Assembly (NCBI GenBank): GCA_964016885.1
Contig: OZ024741.1
Coordinates: forward strand, 45,570,001 to 45,634,000
Length of the DNA: 64,000 nt
Direction of reading: 5' to 3'
Source of the DNA: Eledone cirrhosa
Lineage: Eukaryota
In this document: piece by piece, positions 1 to 63,378 of the stretch
Layout of the letters: each line of letters begins with the position of its first letter
Numbering within the stretch: the stretch's first letter is position 1
Position numbers and translations under genes: made by a program
Notes under the pieces: generated by a model
The model's database searches: none
Told to the model about the DNA's origin: nothing
What the model saw: the letters and a program-made list of their open reading frames with translations, nothing else

Positions 1-362
1 GAATGTCGCAAATTTGGGTGGCAGACGTAACACAGACATTTCATTATTATCTATTTTCGTGTTTCCATAAATGTTGGTATTTTCATTGTTGAACTCTTCA
101 GATAATGAGGTGTCGGCCATGTTGATACCGTCAATTTTGTCGGGATATCTATTGGTATACTCTATAGTATCCCGATGTAGCTTTGCCTGTTTAAGCCACT
201 TTAATTTTCTGTTAAAGTGCTTATTACATTCTTGAGTAATGTACTGTTCTTCGGGGCGTATAAGGCTTATAAATGTTAGTTTTTCTGCTGGTGTGGTGAT
301 TTTAGATATTTCATCTATTAGGTTACGCTTTAGTTTTTCTTGATGACTTAATTCTCTATAAC
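1..362 (-). pseudogene. N-terminal part of a Penelope-like element ORF, inverted relative to the RT-EN fragment; runs off the window edge
   Basis: Manual translation of 360..1 gives 120 codons with no stop (YRELSHQEKL...NNEMSVLRLPPKFATF). The ExSVLxLxPKFA motif resembles the PLE N-terminal domain. It abuts the + strand ORF at 363. Confidence 0.7.
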
Positions 363-1580
363 TTGTTCATGGTATGGTGGGACAGTAGACTTAAACAAAA
401 ACTTAAAGAACAATTAGAAGACAGCTTAACCCTGATAATGTACTCCCGCTACGTAGATGATATAAACATCGTAGTTAAGACACCCCCACTAAAGAACAGT
501 CAGGAACCAGAGAAAAACACAATGGAAAGCATCCAGCAAATAGCAAACTCCATCCACCAGAGCATTAGAGTTACTATAGACTACCCAAGTAGACACCCCA
601 ACCATCGATTACCTGTACTAGACACAGAGCTCTGGTTAGATACTATTAACAACCAAAAACAAATCCTCCATTCCCATTATGCCAAACCCATGACTTCCAA
701 ACATCTGATCCACCGAAACTCGGCCATTTCGGACCATACCAAAATCAACATACTGATTGCGGATTTGATACGGGTGATGAGAAATGTGTCCCGCATGTGC
801 AACCCCGAAGAACTAGAGAGACACATACAACACTTCATCCACCGTATGCAGTTCTCTGGCTACAATCAGAGAGATAGAATCAGAGTGTATAAAGGAGCCA
901 GAACCAAATGGGAAAAAATGGTAAATAATGACATAAATGGGACCTGCCCCTTGTATAGGAGCAAATTTTGGAATAGAATAGAAAGAACTAAGAATAAGGC
1001 CAATAGAATAAACTCATGGTATGATAGCAATAAATACCAGAGTGTAATGTTCATCAATACAACCCCTAGAGGCGAACTAGCCTACAAATTTAGAAGGGCC
1101 CTAAAGAAACATAATCTCAATATTAAGATAGTAGAAAGACCTGGTACCTCCGTAAAAACACTTATTAGCAAGACATACCCGTTCCAAAGACCCTCATGTA
1201 TAGATAAGAAATGTATAACCTGTAAAATAAGCCCCCATATTAACTGTAAAACTAGAAATGTAGTATATAGCATAAGATGTACTGAAGGACAATGTAGAAA
1301 CAAAAATATAGTGTACATAGGTGAGACAGCTCGTAGTATAGGGGAACGAATAAATGAACACTGGCGAGACCTCCAAGATAGTAAAGAATCATCTGTGCTC
1401 TACCAACATGCTAAGATAGAACACAGGGGTAAATTAGAGAGCATAGAAATAAAAATAGAATCCACACACAAGAAAGACGCAATGTTTAGGCAAATTACAG
1501 AGGCAGTAAGCATAAAAGAATTAAAACCAAAATTAAATAGAAAATATGAGTGGAACAGCAACATCACAACTTACAATTAA
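363..1580 (+). CDS. 5'-truncated PLE polyprotein: RT C-terminal half plus GIY-YIG endonuclease
   Basis: RT motifs YSRYVDD and LPVLDTELW; linker CxxxxCxxC; endonuclease NVVYSIRC...C...YIGETARSIGERINEH...H...E...LN. Confidence 0.93.
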   Translation: MFMVWWDSRLKQKLKEQLEDSLTLIMYSRYVDDINIVVKTPPLKNSQEPEKNTMESIQQIANSIHQSIRVTIDYPSRHPNHRLPVLDTELWLDTINNQKQILHSHYAKPMTSKHLIHRNSAISDHTKINILIADLIRVMRNVSRMCNPEELERHIQHFIHRMQFSGYNQRDRIRVYKGARTKWEKMVNNDINGTCPLYRSKFWNRIERTKNKANRINSWYDSNKYQSVMFINTTPRGELAYKFRRALKKHNLNIKIVERPGTSVKTLISKTYPFQRPSCIDKKCITCKISPHINCKTRNVVYSIRCTEGQCRNKNIVYIGETARSIGERINEHWRDLQDSKESSVLYQHAKIEHRGKLESIEIKIESTHKKDAMFRQITEAVSIKELKPKLNRKYEWNSNITTYN

Positions 1581-14945: not shown

Positions 14946-16226
14946 TTAAAAGAGGTGGAAGTGGAGCCAAAATAGGTGAAGGAATTCGTAAATTAAGTTT
15001 TTATCAAGACAATGGTTGTTGAGAGGACATTTATTTTTAACAGGGCAATTGCAATTGCGATTAAAGAGATTATTAACAAGTGACCTAGTGTTATCTATAG
15101 AAGGAATTGGATTGGAGAAGTTATTTGCAATAGGAATAATAGTTTCTTGATTTAGAATGGGATTAACAACATTTAGCGAAGTTGTGTTTGACGTTGTATT
15201 TGGGTTTGCAGAAATTAGCCTAGGGTTTACAATGACGCCGGGAGTACTATTACTATCATTATGATATTCAGTGTTGGAAGGAAGAGATTTAGTATTTAGT
15301 ATTTTATTGTTGTGTTTAGAGATAATGTTGGAAATGTTGGAGGATGTAGAATAGGAAAATTTTATAGTGTGTTTGTTAAATATTTTACTATAGATATGTG
15401 AGGGAGGGAAGCATTTATTTAAGGCACTAAAGAATAATTTAGGAATATTGTTATTAATAGAGATGGAGAAAGGAGCATTATACCAGATTATGTTTTTGTA
15501 TCTAGGTCTTTTATTAAAGTTATTGGAATGATCATGATTAATTATTCTACTGTAAGTTCTTCTAGAATTTGTTTCTTTACTATATTTGATTTTATTAGGA
15601 TAGCCGGCTTTAGAAAGTGCGTTATTATAGTAATTGGCGTTAGCATCAAAGATGTTTTTATTAGAAGATAGGTTAGATATTCTTTTTCCAATATTACTAA
15701 CTATCGCATTCTTGATATTAGTAGGATGGTTAGATTTAAAGTTAACATAATTTAGGTTCTCATTGTTTTTATGGCCAATGTCAAGATTAAGAGATACATC
15801 CAAGAAATTAGCTAGTTTGATGCTGTTATCAAATTCAATGTTTAGGTTATGTTGGTTAAAGAGATTACGTATATTGTTCTTAATAATATTAAGGTTAACT
15901 ATGTTGCAATTTAAGATTGTAAAGAGTCCATCGTCACGATAAAATCCACCGCGAAGTTGAGGAATTTTCCGACTCAAAGAGTTCAAAATAAAGATACCAA
16001 TTAAATCTGTCAATTGGGATGAATCGGATGCTCCCATTGTGATGTCGAAGTTCTTAGAGGTATCGGCTCTGGTCCAATATTCGTTGTTGAACTCTAGGAT
16101 GGTTTTACGTGCGGTGAGAATGATGTGAATTTCATCTGTGGTGATGTCAGAATATTTAAGTGCGAAAGATAGAGCATTATTGAGAAGTGAAGGCGAAATA
16201 GTAGCTGGCAATATGAAATTGAACAA
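14946..16226 (-). pseudogene. PLE RT fragment (frameshifted before the endonuclease)
   Basis: FDITMGASDSSQLTDLIG, GFYRDDGL, NFLDVSLNL, SNHP, WYNAPFS, CNCPVKNKCPL. Confidence 0.88.
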
Positions 16227-16435
16227 ATTTTAGTTTGTTTTTATTATTCAATTAATAAATGTTCGGTAAACCCATACGTACATATATATATATATATATG
16301 TGCATGTATATATGTATATACATACTACTGTACGTCTGTATACATATGTGTATGTACGTATACATACTTATATTTAAGTATCAGCCGTACTGAGAGTGAG
16401 AAATGAAATTTCATTTTTTCCATTTATATATATAT

Positions 16436-16853: not shown

Positions 16854-16938
16854 GATGCATCACTGATGCGTTTTTCTTTTCAGATGCATCACTGATTTTT
16901 CGATTGTTCTATATAAATATATATATATATATATATAT

Positions 16939-17602
16939 AGGAATTTAGGAACAGTTTAGGTATGATACATTTTATTACTAATTATATCTAAATGTTTCTT
17001 CTCTCTTCATAATGTATTTTTAACTCTGATACTGGTTCAGTCTGGTTCAAACTGAATTGGTCTGTCCCAGTCATTCATTGAGCAACATCGGTGAAGTTGG
17101 CACCCTTAACTCACAGTTGGGTGCGGATGCATTCATGTATATATGTGTGTGTCCGCATGTATCAGTGTGTTTCTAAATATATTAATAACTCCCTCTGGTC
17201 GAGCAATCTTTGAAGTGTGGGGACAACTGGAAAGCTTCCATTACTCATACTTCTCGCCTTCTTCACTACCTCTTCTACGGCCTCGATATGAATACCCCCT
17301 CCGCCTCCGTGGTATTTTCTTCGTGGTTATAAGAGGCTTAGCTCTGTTTCTCGACCGTTATATCGCGTGACTGTCTCCCCCTCCGCCTTTTGGGATTCTT
17401 TCTCACGTCGTGTAGACGCGTTCTTGAGACTAGTAAAATGAGGTATCCTCTTGATAAGTCGGCAGACCTCGCAAGGACTCTATATCTTTGATATATTGTT
17501 TTTGTTTATGCCACGAAACTACGTAGTCGAGGAATTTAGGAACAGTTTAGGTATGATACATTTTATTACTAATTATATCTAAATGTTTCTTCTCTCTTCA
17601 TA

Positions 17603-17608
<6 letters not shown>
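16939..17608 (+). mobile_element. Family J: 591-nt non-coding unit with 79-bp terminal direct repeat and U3-A8 HHR
   Basis: Direct repeat 16939-17017 = 17530-17608; (TA)n on both sides. Confidence 0.8.
17446..17533 (+). ncRNA. Type I hammerhead, U3-A8 core variant (family J)
   Basis: TCCTC-TTGATAA-GTcGGCA...TGCCAC-GAAA-CTACGTAG-TC-GAGGA; GUC site; palindromic stem III. Confidence 0.85.
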
Positions 17609-17654
<46 letters not shown>

Positions 17655-17726: not shown

Positions 17727-18245
17727 ATAAAGTTAAATAAAAGTCAAATGATTAAAATTTAGTTTCGTTTATTACTGCTATATATATTTCAGTGACAGCC
17801 ATCTTTGGCTGTGACCTCTTCAGGCAGTTTGAATTAGTATGGTATAGACAAGTACATATGTTGTTTAGGTGTATGATATTGTCAATACTCTGATATGGGG
17901 AACTGGAGTCATATGAACTCCAGTCATATGACTCCAGTTCCCCAGTGAATTAACAACCCAACAAGGAACTGGGCATATCAGAGTATTGACAATATCATAC
18001 ACCTAAACAACATATGTACTTGTCTATACCATACTAATTCAAACTGCCTGAAGAGGTCACAGCCAAAGATGGCTGTCACTGAAATATATATAGCAGTAAT
18101 AAACGAAGCTAAATTTTAATCATTTGACTTTTATTTAACTTTATTTTACACTACTCTGGAGTAACCAAACCAACCTGCGCACATCGTCGAGTGCTTCAGA
18201 CTGCATACTGAGGTGTTGGTATACAACCAACATAAACTCAAAATC
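17727..18245. mobile_element. Family K inverted pLTR-like pair with two HHRs (17774-17828 minus, 18043-18097 plus)
   Basis: ACTGC-CTGAAGA-GGTcACAGCCA(AAGA)TGGCTGTcACT-GAAA-TATATA-TA-GCAGT in both arms. Confidence 0.85.
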
Positions 18246-19308: not shown

Positions 19309-20497
<1,189 letters not shown>

Positions 20498-31505: not shown

Positions 31506-31808
31506 TTAAAACTGTTTGTGGGTATTAAATATTACTTTAAACTGGTTAGAAGTAGCTCCTATATATGAATAAGTTGAGTCCTTAGTGCTAATTTTACATT
31601 TATATACTATGTTATTAATAAGACAATTTCCTTCTAATGGGCAATTTGCTTTGTTTCTACAATTACAACCATTCGTGAATATTATATCAGGGGAGTTAGT
31701 CAAATTAGGTGTGGAATTTACTCGACTTGTTGTATGTGAAGGAGATGGTGGTTTGCTGCGGTTTATTTTAGTATTATGGTTAGTTTGATGTGTTGATGGT
31801 ATATTCAT
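31506..31808 (-). pseudogene. Frameshifted PLE CxC linker and GIY-YIG start
   Basis: CNCRNKANCPLEGNCLINNIVYKC...YIGATSNQFK. Confidence 0.85.
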
Positions 31809-33415
31809 GGTTTCTTTTTACATTTATATGCATTGTAGGCACTTATAGTTTGTTGTATATTTTTGGTAGTGGAGTAGGAAAATTTGACCGCTGATCTATT
31901 TAAAATTTGATGGTATTTATGGTTTTGCGGGAAGTTTTTCTCTAGGATAGTAAAAAAATGTTTAGGGATATTATCTTTAATTTGTAGATTAAATGGAGCA
32001 TTATACCAAGTAACTCGTCTATTACAGTTTCGATGCTGATTTTTATTTTTATACGATGTATCCTGATGTTTACTAAGAGAGTTTGTATTAGTGAATTTAT
32101 TATACATATGTTTAGTTAGATTCACTGATTTAGGTGTTTTAGTCTGATTATTAGGAATTTTGTTAAAAATGTTATTAACATATATTGGAGTATTAGGATG
32201 AATGGTTTTTTGAAAGTTATTATATTGTATGTGAGAAGAGGTAGAGAAATTAAGTTTTAATTTGGTATTTTGGGGTATAGTGTGAGTGGCATTTAAGTGT
32301 GTATTTTTCATTTGGTGTGTGTTGGTAATATTGTGTTGTATGTTTGTAGTATTATTGGTACAAGGTATATAGACTAATTTGTTTTTATGGCCGATTCTAG
32401 TTAAAGCTTCGTTATAAAAGGTCGCATTTTTATCGAATATATCCTGGTTAGATGAAAGGTTAGAAATTCTGAGTGAGATATTATATGCAAGGTTTTTAAG
32501 GATAGATCTAGGGTGATTGGATTGTGAGTGAATGTAATGTAAGTTTTGGTTAGGTTTATGGTAAGGTTGGTAGATACCCGTAGATAAGTCTAAAGTTATA
32601 TCAAGGAAATTAACTACTTTACTGGTGTTTTCAAATGTAATAGTGAGACTATAATAGTCTTTGAGGAAAGTTCTAAGTTTTTTATTTTTTTCAATTTCTG
32701 ATAGGCTAAGGTTAGTGGAAAGAAGAAGACAATCATCACGATACAAACCACCTTTAAGGTGGGGAAAAGAAGCATTTATGTTAAATAGAAGAAAGAGGCC
32801 CACAAGATCGGTAATTTGGGCAGAATCATTAGAGCCCATACTAATGTCGAATAGATTACTATATGTATTTCTGGTCCAGTATTTCTTCTGAAATTCCAGT
32901 AGTGTTTGTCTAGCGTGTGTGATAATATTAATGTCATCCATAGTTAAGTTTGATCTATTTTTGGCAAATATCAAGGCTTTGTTCAGGAGTATGGGTGACA
33001 TAGAGGGATAATAAGCATCTATATAGAATTGTAGAAATGAAGCAGATGATTTATTTCTAATATTAGTAAACCAGTTTATTACCTGGGATGTGTTTTCCCA
33101 GAGTGGTAAATTAACTTGTTTTCTTAATTGTGGGATGACTCTATCTAAAATTGTTTTACTAATGATGCCAATGTCAGATTTGGAAGGGCATATAAGTCTT
33201 ATAGAAGGATTAGAGTTAAAATTAGATTTGTGATCTTTCAGGTTAAAGTGTGGTTTTTTCAGTGCCAAAGGTTCAGTTCTATGTTCAATATTGAGTTCAT
33301 TTACTATGTTGTGTGTTTTGTTGTTGATATTGGTAAGTGCCGCATTATTTGTTTTTTTATAATTTTTCCTGAGTTCTTTATAAATGAAGATTTCCAGTTT
33401 TGTCAGAGTGGACAT
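31805..33415 (-). CDS. PLE reverse transcriptase, 5'-truncated and frameshifted before the endonuclease
   Basis: LKDHK...RLICP, FYIDAYYPS, FDISMGSNDSAQITDLVG, GLYRDDCL, NFLDITLDL, SNHP, WYNAPF. Confidence 0.9.
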   Translation of the reverse strand: MSTLTKLEIFIYKELRKNYKKTNNAALTNINNKTHNIVNELNIEHRTEPLALKKPHFNLKDHKSNFNSNPSIRLICPSKSDIGIISKTILDRVIPQLRKQVNLPLWENTSQVINWFTNIRNKSSASFLQFYIDAYYPSMSPILLNKALIFAKNRSNLTMDDINIITHARQTLLEFQKKYWTRNTYSNLFDISMGSNDSAQITDLVGLFLLFNINASFPHLKGGLYRDDCLLLSTNLSLSEIEKNKKLRTFLKDYYSLTITFENTSKVVNFLDITLDLSTGIYQPYHKPNQNLHYIHSQSNHPRSILKNLAYNISLRISNLSSNQDIFDKNATFYNEALTRIGHKNKLVYIPCTNNTTNIQHNITNTHQMKNTHLNATHTIPQNTKLKLNFSTSSHIQYNNFQKTIHPNTPIYVNNIFNKIPNNQTKTPKSVNLTKHMYNKFTNTNSLSKHQDTSYKNKNQHRNCNRRVTWYNAPFNLQIKDNIPKHFFTILEKNFPQNHKYHQILNRSAVKFSYSTTKNIQQTISAYNAYKCKKKP

Positions 33416-33678
33416 GGATTTTGATAGATTTTTTTTAGATCCAATAGGGTAGAATCAAGATCCTTTTGAAAATTAGATTTATATTTCTAAAATTTGTTTC
33501 TTTGTTTTTATTCATTGTTTATATTAATTTATCTTGACTCTGTTTTCCTGTGATTTTAATCGAAAAAAACTTTTGAATACATCTTTTCTTTTCATGATAT
33601 TTGGATTACATTGAGTTCTTCATACAGATTGGACACTACCGTATATTTTGGTAGATTTATCTACATATATATATATAT

Positions 33679-59731: not shown

Positions 59732-61000
59732 TTTTGCGAGGTTTTTGATATGAAATCGTCTGTCGAAACAAATATTGTTATACTTGGGGAGGGTCATATT
59801 TGTGTAATAATATTGCCAGAATTAATAACAGAACACACTCACTGTTTCGTTGGTTTTCGCTTCTGTGTCTTTTATATCGGTTAATGTAATTTATTATATA
59901 TAGTCTAACAAAGTTCTTTCGTTGCACATTTGCAACATCGTCAGTGGTACTATTATGTTTCCTCCTGTTGTGTTGTCTGCCTACGCCTTTTTATTTAGTC
60001 TGTTTATTTATTTTTTTTTTGTCTTCTCTGGACATGCGTTTGCGTGTGTGTATAGTGTTTGATATGTGTTCGTGTTTGGGTGACTGTGTATTGGTTATTG
60101 TATTCTATCTTAGTACAGTGGGTTTTCTTAAAAGGGTAGGTTTTGCTGATCAGGGATTTTATGGTGGTTCCTTGCTTTTCTACCATCTTAATCTTTAAGT
60201 GGGTCTTTCTCAGGGCCTTTCTACACTGGTTAGCTAATTTCCCTCCAGGGGTAGCGTCCACAAACATGACACGCTGGTATCTCTGGTTGTCGTACCATGA
60301 GGTGGCTTTCCCTATCTTATGTCTAGTCCTATCTAAGCTATTCCATGATTTGCTCCTGTATAATGGGAAAATTCCTTTCATGTCCAGTTCTATGAGGGTC
60401 TTATACTTCTCCATGGCTCCTTCGTATACTCTGATTCTGTCTCTTTGGTTGTAGCCAGAGAACTGCATGCGTTTGATGAAGTGTTGGATGTGTTTTTCCA
60501 TTTCTGTTGGGTCGCACATGCGCGACACGTTCTTCATCACTTGTACCAAGTCTGCCATCAGAATATTAAACTTAGCACTACTGGACATTGCTGAGTTTTT
60601 GAGTATCAGGTATTTGGAGGCCATGAGTTTAGCATAGTGTGAGTGGAGAATTTGGGCTCTCTCGCCTATAGTGTTAATCCAGAGTTCCGTGTCTAATACA
60701 GGTAGTCTATTGTGAGAGTGTTTGGAAGGGTAGTCGATAGTTACAGTTATACTCTGGTGCATGGAATTAGCTATCTGCTGGATACTTTCCATTGTGCTAC
60801 GTTCTAAATCAAACTTGTTAGTACTCACTTGTGGGGATGTCCTTATTACTATATTGATGTCGTCTACGTAACGAGAGTACGTGATGAGGTCTATGGAGCT
60901 CTCATCAAGGAGATCTTTGAGTCTCCTTTTCCACCATACCATAAAAAGTTTGGCAACGTCACCAGCTATGATGACGCCAATGGCTGCTCCCTCATTTTGT
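59730..61000 (-). mobile_element. RYVDD-type PLE, inverted deleted copy (ORF 60004-60942; HHR 59906-59949)
   Basis: YSRYVDD, LPVLDTELW; GIY-YIG deleted; pLTR with CTGACGA core. Confidence 0.9.
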
Positions 61001-61006
61001 GCGCTG

Positions 61007-63378
61007 TTTGAGGCTAACCAAGCCTTCTACAGTAATAATAATGCTAATGATAGGAACAACAACAACCACCATAATAAAAATAATAACAATAATAGCAACA
61101 CACACAACTATGACGATAGATATAATGACGACCCCTTAGAGAAACTATTCTTCAATCCAGCTGACAAAACATATAAGATGGGTAATATCTATCCTACGAG
61201 GTTACCCTTTAATAAAAGCGTTTGTATACCCCAACAGATAGATGACGAGACAGAGGCACAGTTCACCATAGCTAGAAATAAGATTAGACAAAGAGTAAAT
61301 CGGTATACTAAAGACAGAGCAGACCAGAGGTCCAACAACTTAACAACTTCGGAGGAAACCTGTAGAAGGCTTGGTTAGCCTCAAGCAGCGCACAAGGGAT
61401 GGTGAGGAAGTATGTCTACCCACGGATAAGTCTGGTAGGATGTCAATAGACAACATGCCGAACTACATCAAGGCTATGCAACCCCACATCACCAACACGA
61501 GCGAAATTGCACAGCAAATACATGATGGGAGAGAAAATCCTCAACGTTCACAGGATAATGTGGACCGACACCCTGAAGCCAAGCAGACGCACTGCCAACA
61601 ACTTCCAGGCGTCTAACAATGAGACGATCTACACCAAAAATGAGGGAGCAGCCATTGGCGTCAGCATAGCTGGTGACCTTGCCAAACTTTTTATGGTATG
61701 GAGGGAAAGGAGACTCAAAGATCTCCTTAATGAGAGCTTCATAGACCTCATCATATACTCTCGTTACGTAGACGACATCAATATAGTAATAAGGACATCC
61801 CCACAAGAGAGTACTAACAAGTTTGATTTAGAACGTAGCACAATGGAAAGCATCCAGCAGATAGCTAATTCCATGCACCAGAGTATAACTATAACTATCG
61901 ACTACCCTTCCAAACACCCTAACAATAGACTACCTGTATTAGACACGGAACTCTGTATTAACACTATAGACGAGAGAGCCCAAATTCTCCACTCACACTA
62001 TGCTAAATCCATGGCCTCCAAATACCTGATACTCAAAAACTTAGCAATGTCCAGTAGTGCTAAGTTTAACATTCTGATGGCAGACTTGGTACGAGTGATG
62101 AAGAACGTGTCCCACATGTGCGACCCAACAGAAATGGAAAGACACATCCAACACTTCATCAACCGCATGCAGTTCTCTGGCTACAACCAAAGAGACATAA
62201 TCAGAGTATACGAAGGAGCCATGTAGAAGTATAAGACCCTCATAGAACTGGACATGAAAGGAATTTTCCCATTATACAGGAGCAAATCATGGAATAGCTT
62301 AGATAGGACTAGACATAAGATAGGGAAAGCCACCTCATGGTACGACAACCAGAGATACCAGAGTGTCATGTTTGTGGACGCTACCTCTGGAGGGAAATTA
62401 GCTAACCAGCGTAGAAAGGCCCTGAGAAAGACCCACTTAAAGATTAAGATGGTAGAAAAGCCAGGAACCACCATAAAATCCCTGATCAGCAAAACCTACC
62501 CTTTTAAGAAAACCCACTGTACTAATAGGAAATGTATTATACGTAAAGTAAACCCCCGGATAAACTGTAAAACTAGAAACGTAGTCTATAGCATAAGATG
62601 TACAGAGGGTACTTGCAGAAACATGACAACAACATACATAGGCGAGACACCTCGTAGCATAGGTGAAAGGATAGACCAACACTGGGGGGAACTAAAAGGA
62701 CGAAAAACGGTTCAGTACTATACGAACATGGCAGACAACAATACGACGGTAACATAGACAACATAGAAATTAGAATAATATCTAAACATAGAAATGACAC
62801 AGCAGGTAGGCAAATCAGAGAGGCCAGCGAAATAGAACTTAGAAGGCCAAGGCTAAACAATGAATGGAATAACAACAACACCCAAACAAACAATACTGAC
62901 CTAACAGAAGTATAAATAAATAAATAAATACATACACAAGCACAATAACAACAAACACATATAAACACACACTAGTAAACTAAGATAGAATACAATAACC
63001 AATACACAGTCACCCAAACACGAACACATATCAAACACTATACACACACGCAAACGCATGCCCAGAGAAGACAAAAAAAAATAAATAAACAGACTAAATA
63101 AAAAGGCGTAGGCAGACAATACAACAGGAGGAAACATAATAGTAACACTGACGATGTTGCAGATGTGCAACGAAAGAACTTTGTTAGACTATATATATGT
63201 GTTTGTGTCTATATTATATCTGTATCTTTGACCGTTGGTCGGTCAATGGTAACATTGAAGACCGAATATATTAAATTAACCGATATAAAAAACACAGAAG
63301 CGAAAACCAACCAAACAGGGAGTGTGTTCTGTTATTAATTCTGGCAATATTATTACAAATATGACCCTCCCCAAGTAT

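What the first reader, a model, noticed from the sequence alone, without database searches (positions are those of the whole stretch)
16939..17608. Element 5' boundary falls within 1 nt of its own ribozyme cleavage site
Seen: predicted cleavage is after GUC at 17528, so the product RNA begins GAGGAAUUUAGG. The genomic insertion begins right after (TA)n at 16939 with AGGAATTTAGG and runs 591 nt back to the same site, plus a 79-nt repeat. Inference: the template RNA 5' end was created by self-cleavage, which is indirect in vivo evidence that this U3-A8 ribozyme was active.
Basis: partly seen in the sequence, partly recalled or inferred. Interest (0 to 1): 0.72.

Follow-up and report, generated by a model that had tools for sequence, protein, structure and literature searches.

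The report
Retrozyme ends step at ribozyme cut
This is one of thousands of young copies of a 591-base jumping RNA that carries a predicted self-cutting motif; its copies start all round the unit and usually read straight through the predicted cut, so this copy's boundary proves little alone, but starts become about 2.4 times denser exactly from the cut onward, which likely records real cutting or pausing there in a few percent of copying passes.

Summary
Observation confirmed: 591-nt period, 79-nt repeat, U3-A8 type I hammerhead, start at +2 or +3 after GUC 17528. The element is a young non-LTR retrozyme (at least 2,970 units) with a Penelope-type footprint: (TA)n targets, two fixed 3' ends, head-to-head arms. 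In 47 loci taken in genome order the 74 5' ends lie all round the unit; 1 is at +1..+4 and the cut site is read through 100 times. About 4 ends per position are expected by chance, so this copy alone is weak evidence (about 0.35 for a cleaved end). At family level the idea partly holds: 5' ends are 2.4-fold denser from +1 onward (125 in 13 nt against 64 in 16 nt, two subfamilies, best change-point exactly +1). It is a plateau, not a spike. Better evidence for processing: variants shared by every pass of an array are A>G-skewed, and one double change exists at one locus only, in 7 of 7 hits, as expected from an edited circle read repeatedly. The scan noted two-armed, edited retrozymes before on other DNA; I found no note of this step.

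The parts
16910..16939 (.). Left (TA)n target tract; its last A is shared with the element start
16939..17608 (+). Whole insertion: 1.13 units of the retrozyme, unit positions +2 (or +3) to +591, then +1 to +80 (+1 = base after GUC)
16939..16940 (+). 5' boundary, +2 or +3 relative to the predicted cleavage site
16960..17009 (+). Intron-like signals as in Penelope leaders: AG/GTATGA donor-like site, TACTAAT branch-like site, pyrimidine tract; kept in the sister family
   Evidence: sequence; function inferred, not tested
17178..17182 (+). Second fixed 3' end of the family (+241 to +245), not used by this copy
   Evidence: 27 of 72 3' ends at +241..+247
17164..17164 (+). A at unit +227, where nearly all other loci have T: a change particular to this copy
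17446..17533 (+). Type I hammerhead: stem I 17446-17450 with 17529-17533; core UUGAUAA 17451-17457 (U3, A8); long stem II 17458-17514; GAAA 17515-17518; palindromic stem III 17518-17527; C17 = 17528
   Evidence: constrained fold; core and stems I, III invariant or nearly so in 10 aligned copies of two families
17528..17529 (+). Predicted cleavage and ligation junction; read through intact in this copy
   Evidence: hammerhead consensus (established knowledge)
17530..17608 (+). 79-nt terminal repeat ending at the main fixed 3' end (+76 to +80), likely the priming site
   Evidence: 37 of 72 3' ends at +76..+83
17606..17651 (.). Right (TA)n target tract

Best explanation
This is a 1.13-unit insertion of a young, high-copy non-LTR retrozyme whose copies end at two fixed 3' sites and start all round the unit, likely made by a Penelope-type enzyme copying a mostly circular RNA, with a small share of passes ending just after the predicted ribozyme cut. 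Steps. (1) Inferred: tandem genomic arrays are transcribed; the U3-A8 hammerheads cut after GUC, probably as dimers through the palindromic stem III; monomers are ligated into 591-nt circles and some are A-to-I edited. (2) Shown as footprint, enzyme inferred: a nick in (TA)n primes copying at +80 or +245, in about half of loci at both, giving head-to-head arms. (3) Shown: copying runs through the junction up to 11 times and stops at about 0.15% per base. (4) Shown: stops are 2.4-fold denser from +1 to at least +13. Inferred: some 2-4% of passes meet a free cleaved end or a pause at the junction, and the cDNA end is then joined with loss of 0 to about 40 nt. For this copy: ordinary truncation about 0.45, cleaved end about 0.35, pause at the junction or hairpin about 0.2.
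For: 2,970 exact copies of +4..+27. In 47 loci: 64 of 72 3' ends at two sites, 25 loci two-armed, 20 of 23 simple two-armed loci use one site each, 74 5' ends dispersed, 100 read-throughs. Among sites read at least twice in a locus, 79 variants are in every pass, 2 in some, 69 in one. Every-pass variants: 20 A>G against 7 T>C (p 2e-4; 19 against 7 without the dimorphic site 436); one-pass variants 4 against 9; 1 of 20 has a 5' G against 28 of 133 A's. L048 has 7 A>G changes in all passes of both arms, and its A113G+A114G pair occurs genome-wide only there, 7 of 7 hits. Step: 55 in 13 nt against 38 in 16 nt, 70 against 26 in the second subfamily, pooled p 3e-9, best change-point +1 by 3.6 log units; it holds within both classes of preceding base. 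L123 and L124 have both arms ending at +1/+2. The circle folds at z -5.8 against 40 shuffles. An older sister family, about 78-80% identical, keeps core and both 3' sites.
Against: No RNA was seen and no cleavage was measured. The helper element was not identified: two Penelope-like families with long open frames share no sequence with the unit. L132 shows a variant in some passes only, which needs a multimer template. The step counts were read by eye. +1/+2 is not significantly above +3..+13 (25 of 125, p 0.10). The blunt (TA)n spike at +1 (5 of 7, p 0.005) did not replicate (2 of 10, p 0.62). The hairpin region +151..+250 also shows more ends (18 against 12.7 expected), so structure alone may raise end density. 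Many inversion junctions at +1/+2 can be microhomology with GAGG in the opposite strand.
Confidence: 0.75

Rival explanations
1. One reading: this copy was made from an RNA whose 5' end was freshly cut by the hammerhead (a partly cleaved dimer), and reverse transcription ran off that end.
For: Start within 1-2 nt of the cut; step begins exactly at +1; 44-64% of ends in +1..+13 are excess over the upstream level; both arms end at +1/+2 in L123 and L124; in R2 elements cut at their own 5' end, junctions vary by chance microhomology (PMC3774820, abstract), which would give a plateau.
Confidence: 0.35
2. The boundary is an ordinary 5' truncation that landed near the cut by chance, helped by one base of A microhomology with (TA)n.
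For: Dispersed ends; (TA)n-flanked ends gather at TA dinucleotides such as -9, -5 and +9; A16939 is shared with the tract.
Against: The local rate is about twice the upstream rate, so chance covers only about half of such ends.
Confidence: 0.45
3. The excess comes from the enzyme pausing or letting go at the ligated junction, at stem I, or after copying the +2..+70 hairpin of a circle; no free 5' end is involved.
For: Equal stop rate on first and later passes; L128 ends at +2 on a later pass with A194G in all passes of both arms; +2..+70 is a predicted hairpin; another hairpin region is also enriched.
Against: A structural pause should peak on the 3' side of a stem, yet the edge lies exactly at +1; paired blunt ends at +1/+2 fit a physical end better.
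Confidence: 0.2
4. Arrays come from long uncleaved tandem transcripts or from DNA-level tandem expansion; the ribozyme is idle and there is no circle.
For: In an Anolis Penelope-like element cleavage is not needed for insertion in vitro, and no RNA reads began at the cut (PMC11167929, part 2); 8 of 9 Xenopus retrozyme dimers did not cleave (bioRxiv 2026.07.22.740005, part 3); L132 needs a multimer.
Against: Fresh editing of a linear multimer would give one-unit A>G changes, which are not enriched (4 of 69), while every-pass ones are; a locus-private double change sits in all 7 passes of two opposed arms.
Confidence: 0.1

Closest known systems
Metazoan non-LTR retrozymes (PMC7229834: passages and parts 3-4 of 6 read; bioRxiv 10.64898/2026.07.22.740005: parts 1 and 3 of 5 read)
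   Same: Non-coding tandem unit, one type I hammerhead per unit, GC under 50%, monomers to multimers, no LTR features; proposed circle and Penelope helper.
   Different: 591 nt against the 150-450 bp given there; U3-A8 core and a long stem II; in the parts read, no mapping of insertion ends, of two-armed structure, of shared edits or of 5' ends against the cut.
Penelope-like elements (PMC11167929: parts 1-2 of 4; PMC8557442: passages; PMC4209133: passages)
   Same: AT-rich or (TA)n targets, internal start of reverse transcription at two sites, both strands nicked and extended, inverted 5'-truncated arms, hammerhead with palindromic stem III; U3-A8 was reported in Schistosoma Cercyon elements.
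   Different: No protein is encoded; the two 3' sites are 165 nt apart, not 30-40; up to 11 units per arm.
R2 retrotransposon 5' ribozyme (PMC3774820: abstract only)
   Same: Precedent for a ribozyme cut defining an element's 5' end, with variable junctions when the cut is at the very end.
   Different: HDV-like ribozyme and a linear template in which the cut is the rule; here the cut site is read through in nearly all passes.

Membership tests
Non-LTR retrozyme | Short tandem unit with a type I hammerhead in each unit | tested here: met
Non-LTR retrozyme | No coding capacity, no LTR structure | tested here: met
   no stop-free frame of 120 aa or more overlaps the element; tandem, not LTR-flanked
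Non-LTR retrozyme | GC below 50%, unit of a few hundred nt | tested here: met
   unit about 42% GC (base counts); 591 nt is above the published 150-450 range
Non-LTR retrozyme | Expressed and accumulates as circular RNA | tested here: inconclusive
   indirect support from shared edits; no RNA run was available
Non-LTR retrozyme | Self-cleavage in vitro | not testable with these tools
   fold and conservation only
Type I hammerhead, U3-A8 variant | Core, G10.1-C11.1 pair, GAAA, UH triplet, stems I-III | tested here: met
   kept in sister family; no Rfam model reaches its gathering score
Penelope-mobilised element | Fixed internal 3' ends in microsatellite targets with inverted truncated arms | tested here: met
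Penelope-mobilised element | Sequence shared with the ends of an autonomous element | tested here: inconclusive
   none in 18 loci of two families; other families were not searched
R2-like ribozyme-defined 5' end | Most full-length copies start at or near the cut | tested here: not met
   1 of 74 ends at +1..+4, 100 read-throughs

The most novel reading that the evidence does not exclude
The genome holds a base-exact fossil record of hammerhead activity in the germ line: edited 591-nt circles were copied round and round by a Penelope-type enzyme from both sides of a break, and a minority of templates were cut at GUC, leaving a step in 5'-end density that starts exactly at the cleavage site. 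Such a step would be a sequence-only assay for which genomic ribozymes were active in vivo.
Probability: 0.5. Interest if true: 0.7.

Novelty: new variant of a known kind. Interest (0 to 1): 0.52.

Why it matters
Whether the hammerheads of Penelope-like elements and animal retrozymes cut in vivo, and whether circles are the templates for insertion, is proposed but open: one Penelope-like element did not need cleavage in vitro and most frog retrozymes tested did not cleave. This family gives thousands of near-identical insertions in which the template can be read back. The single boundary is weak, but the family-wide step at +1 and the edits repeated in every pass make both questions testable, and the method carries over to other families.

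Tried and rejected
Rfam: 0 matches. A spike at +1 among blunt (TA)n-flanked ends: 5 of 7 in the first subfamily, not replicated (2 of 10; pooled 7 of 17, p 0.04). AT-richness as cause of the step: end density outside +1..+45 does not rise with AT content, and the step holds in both preceding-base classes. Early-termination gradient from +80: +5..+13 had 27 ends and +14..+39 had 62 among the first 100 of 418 rows (11 dropped as variants or deletions), a plateau (the pattern was offset by one base, so only one anchor acted and subfamilies are mixed). Linear monomers as the main source of +1/+2 ends: not supported (12 of 19 first-pass against 64%). Expression: no RNA holder listed. Closed-loop contigs of the unit in runs X1 and X5 are no evidence of a circle: tandem DNA gives the same loop, and both runs hold a Penelope-like frame at similar depth. 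Helper search: two families, no shared sequence; a short-stem hammerhead pattern found only deletions and the sister family. One search used a mis-registered structure string; its output is disregarded, and no covariation statistic is claimed. PMC3088659 was seen only in a search listing.

Full report
Observation. The sequence is as described. GUC ends at 17528; 16939-17017 equals 17530-17608 (79 nt, period 591). I number the unit from +1 = G17529. The copy runs +2..+591, +1..+80 between two (TA)n tracts. A16939 is shared with the left tract, so the start is +2 or +3. The motif folds as a type I hammerhead with U3 and A8, G10.1-C11.1, GAAA and a palindromic stem III. Rfam has no match at gathering score. 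U3-A8 is a described variant in Schistosoma Penelope-like elements (PMC4209133, passage).

The family. The genome holds 2,970 exact copies of +4..+27; a second subfamily with G at +14 is not in that count, and an older sister family at about 78-80% identity keeps the core, stems I and III and both 3' sites. I fetched all 47 loci behind the first 100 listed matches (one was already held). Selection needed an exact +4..+27 match, so very short arms are under-sampled. Of 72 3' ends, 37 lie at +76..+83 and 27 at +241..+247, at (TA)n. 25 of 47 loci are head-to-head pairs, and 20 of 23 simple pairs use one site each. One arm reaches 6,553 nt (L090). This matches Penelope-like behaviour: internal start sites, both strands extended (PMC11167929, parts 1-2 of 4), inverted truncated copies and microsatellite targets (PMC8557442, passages).

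The 74 5' ends are spread over the unit: 1 at +1..+4 (0.6 expected), 11 at +1..+45 (7.0 expected), with 100 read-throughs of the cut site. The stop rate of 0.00146 per base gives about 4 ends per position in this subfamily, so copies within 1-2 nt of the cut must exist by chance. The usual template is continuous across the site.

A finer count. A pattern that detects ends equally from -16 to +13 gave 96 rows, all read by eye, 3 dropped as indels: 38 ends in the 16 positions upstream and 55 in the 13 downstream (p 0.004, or 0.005 without this copy and two duplicates). I wrote three predictions and ran the same design on the second subfamily: first 100 of 187 rows, 4 dropped as indels, 26 against 70. 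Pooled, 64 against 125, ratio 2.4, p 3e-9, and the best change-point is exactly +1, 3.6 log units above the next. The step holds when positions are matched by preceding base (p 0.005 and 3e-5). Against a sharp end: +1/+2 is not above +3..+13 (25 of 125, p 0.10); +9 is the highest position (22); the blunt (TA)n spike at +1 failed to replicate (5 of 7, then 2 of 10); the raised level runs on to +39 (flawed pattern). Two loci have both arms ending at +1/+2 without microhomology (L123, L124). The excess is 44-64% of ends in this zone and, by rough estimate, 2-4% of passes. For the window copy I give 0.45 to chance truncation, 0.35 to a cleaved end, 0.2 to a pause. A plain monomer cannot be its template, because it first read an intact junction.

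Stronger evidence for processing. Over the 66 loci examined, at sites read at least twice within a locus, 79 variants are in every pass, 2 in some and 69 in one. Every-pass variants are skewed to A>G on the ribozyme strand (20 against 7 T>C, p 2e-4; one of the 20 is the dimorphic site 436), one-pass variants are not (4 against 9), and a 5' G is rare (1 of 20 against 28 of 133). This fits ADAR editing (preference recalled from established knowledge). L048 carries seven A>G changes in all passes of both arms, and its A113G+A114G pair is found only there, 7 of 7 hits. A single edited monomer read at least seven times implies a circle or its equivalent, and an exact 591-nt circle needs cutting at equivalent sites of neighbouring units; the hammerhead is the obvious agent (inference). 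This is the life cycle proposed in PMC7229834 (part 4 of 6). Not all templates were monomers: L132 has a variant in some passes only.

What is missing. No RNA or activity data. The helper is unknown: two Penelope-like families with open frames of 834 and 1,217 codons insert in the same kind of site, but 18 loci share no sequence with the unit. Published tests urge caution: cleavage was dispensable for an Anolis element and no reads began at its cut (PMC11167929); 8 of 9 Xenopus dimers did not cleave (bioRxiv 2026.07.22.740005, part 3 of 5).

Novelty. The class is known. In the paper searches (open-licence library only, supplements unseen) I found no mapping of retrozyme 5' ends against the cut and no report of edits repeated in every unit; one search returned 0 papers. 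Earlier notes of this scan describe the two-armed footprint and fossil editing in other families of this and other genomes, read after my own tests; none matched this sequence and I found none on the step at +1. Those notes call the host an octopus; I did not test that. Verdict: real element, observation right, copy-level inference too strong, family-level version modestly supported. Interest 0.52.

Noticed in passing
window 17727-18144: Inverted pair (171-nt arms, 99% complementary) carrying another minimal hammerhead-like motif with a TA-palindromic stem III; likely a two-armed insertion of a different Penelope-related family.
   Followed up: no
window 19405-20354: Nested inverted repeats (207 and 141 nt arms), probably another two-armed insertion.
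   Followed up: no
window 306-1580, 14946-16229, 31805-33454, 60004-62757: Remnants of two Penelope-like reverse transcriptase/endonuclease families; a weak GIY-YIG match in the first.
   Followed up: partly
L137-L148, e.g. L138:151-7918: Very young Penelope-like family with a 1,217-codon open frame, 4.1-kb tandems, head-to-head arms, (TA)n targets and its own hammerhead-like motif; candidate helper, no sequence shared with the unit.
   Followed up: partly
L097-L116: Older sister retrozyme family, about 78-80% identical, 3,326 search candidates; the long stem II differs in sequence but still folds.
   Followed up: partly
L090 unit +209; L024 unit +449: A variant in 3 of 13 and 2 of 5 non-adjacent passes: repeated misreading of one template base, or a multimer template.
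   Followed up: no
L132: A deletion plus substitution present in some passes of each arm, pointing to a multimeric template.
   Followed up: partly
L091, L094, L096: Copies with most of the stem II extension deleted, in more than one unit or arm, suggesting shortened variants were also copied.
   Followed up: no
L063: Arm ends at +1 and is preceded by a 9-nt repeat of +2..+10, like a template jump at an RNA end.
   Followed up: no
window 17295-17304 and 17377-17386: Two GC-box-like CCCCTCCGCC motifs, largely kept in the sister family; possible internal promoter.
   Followed up: no
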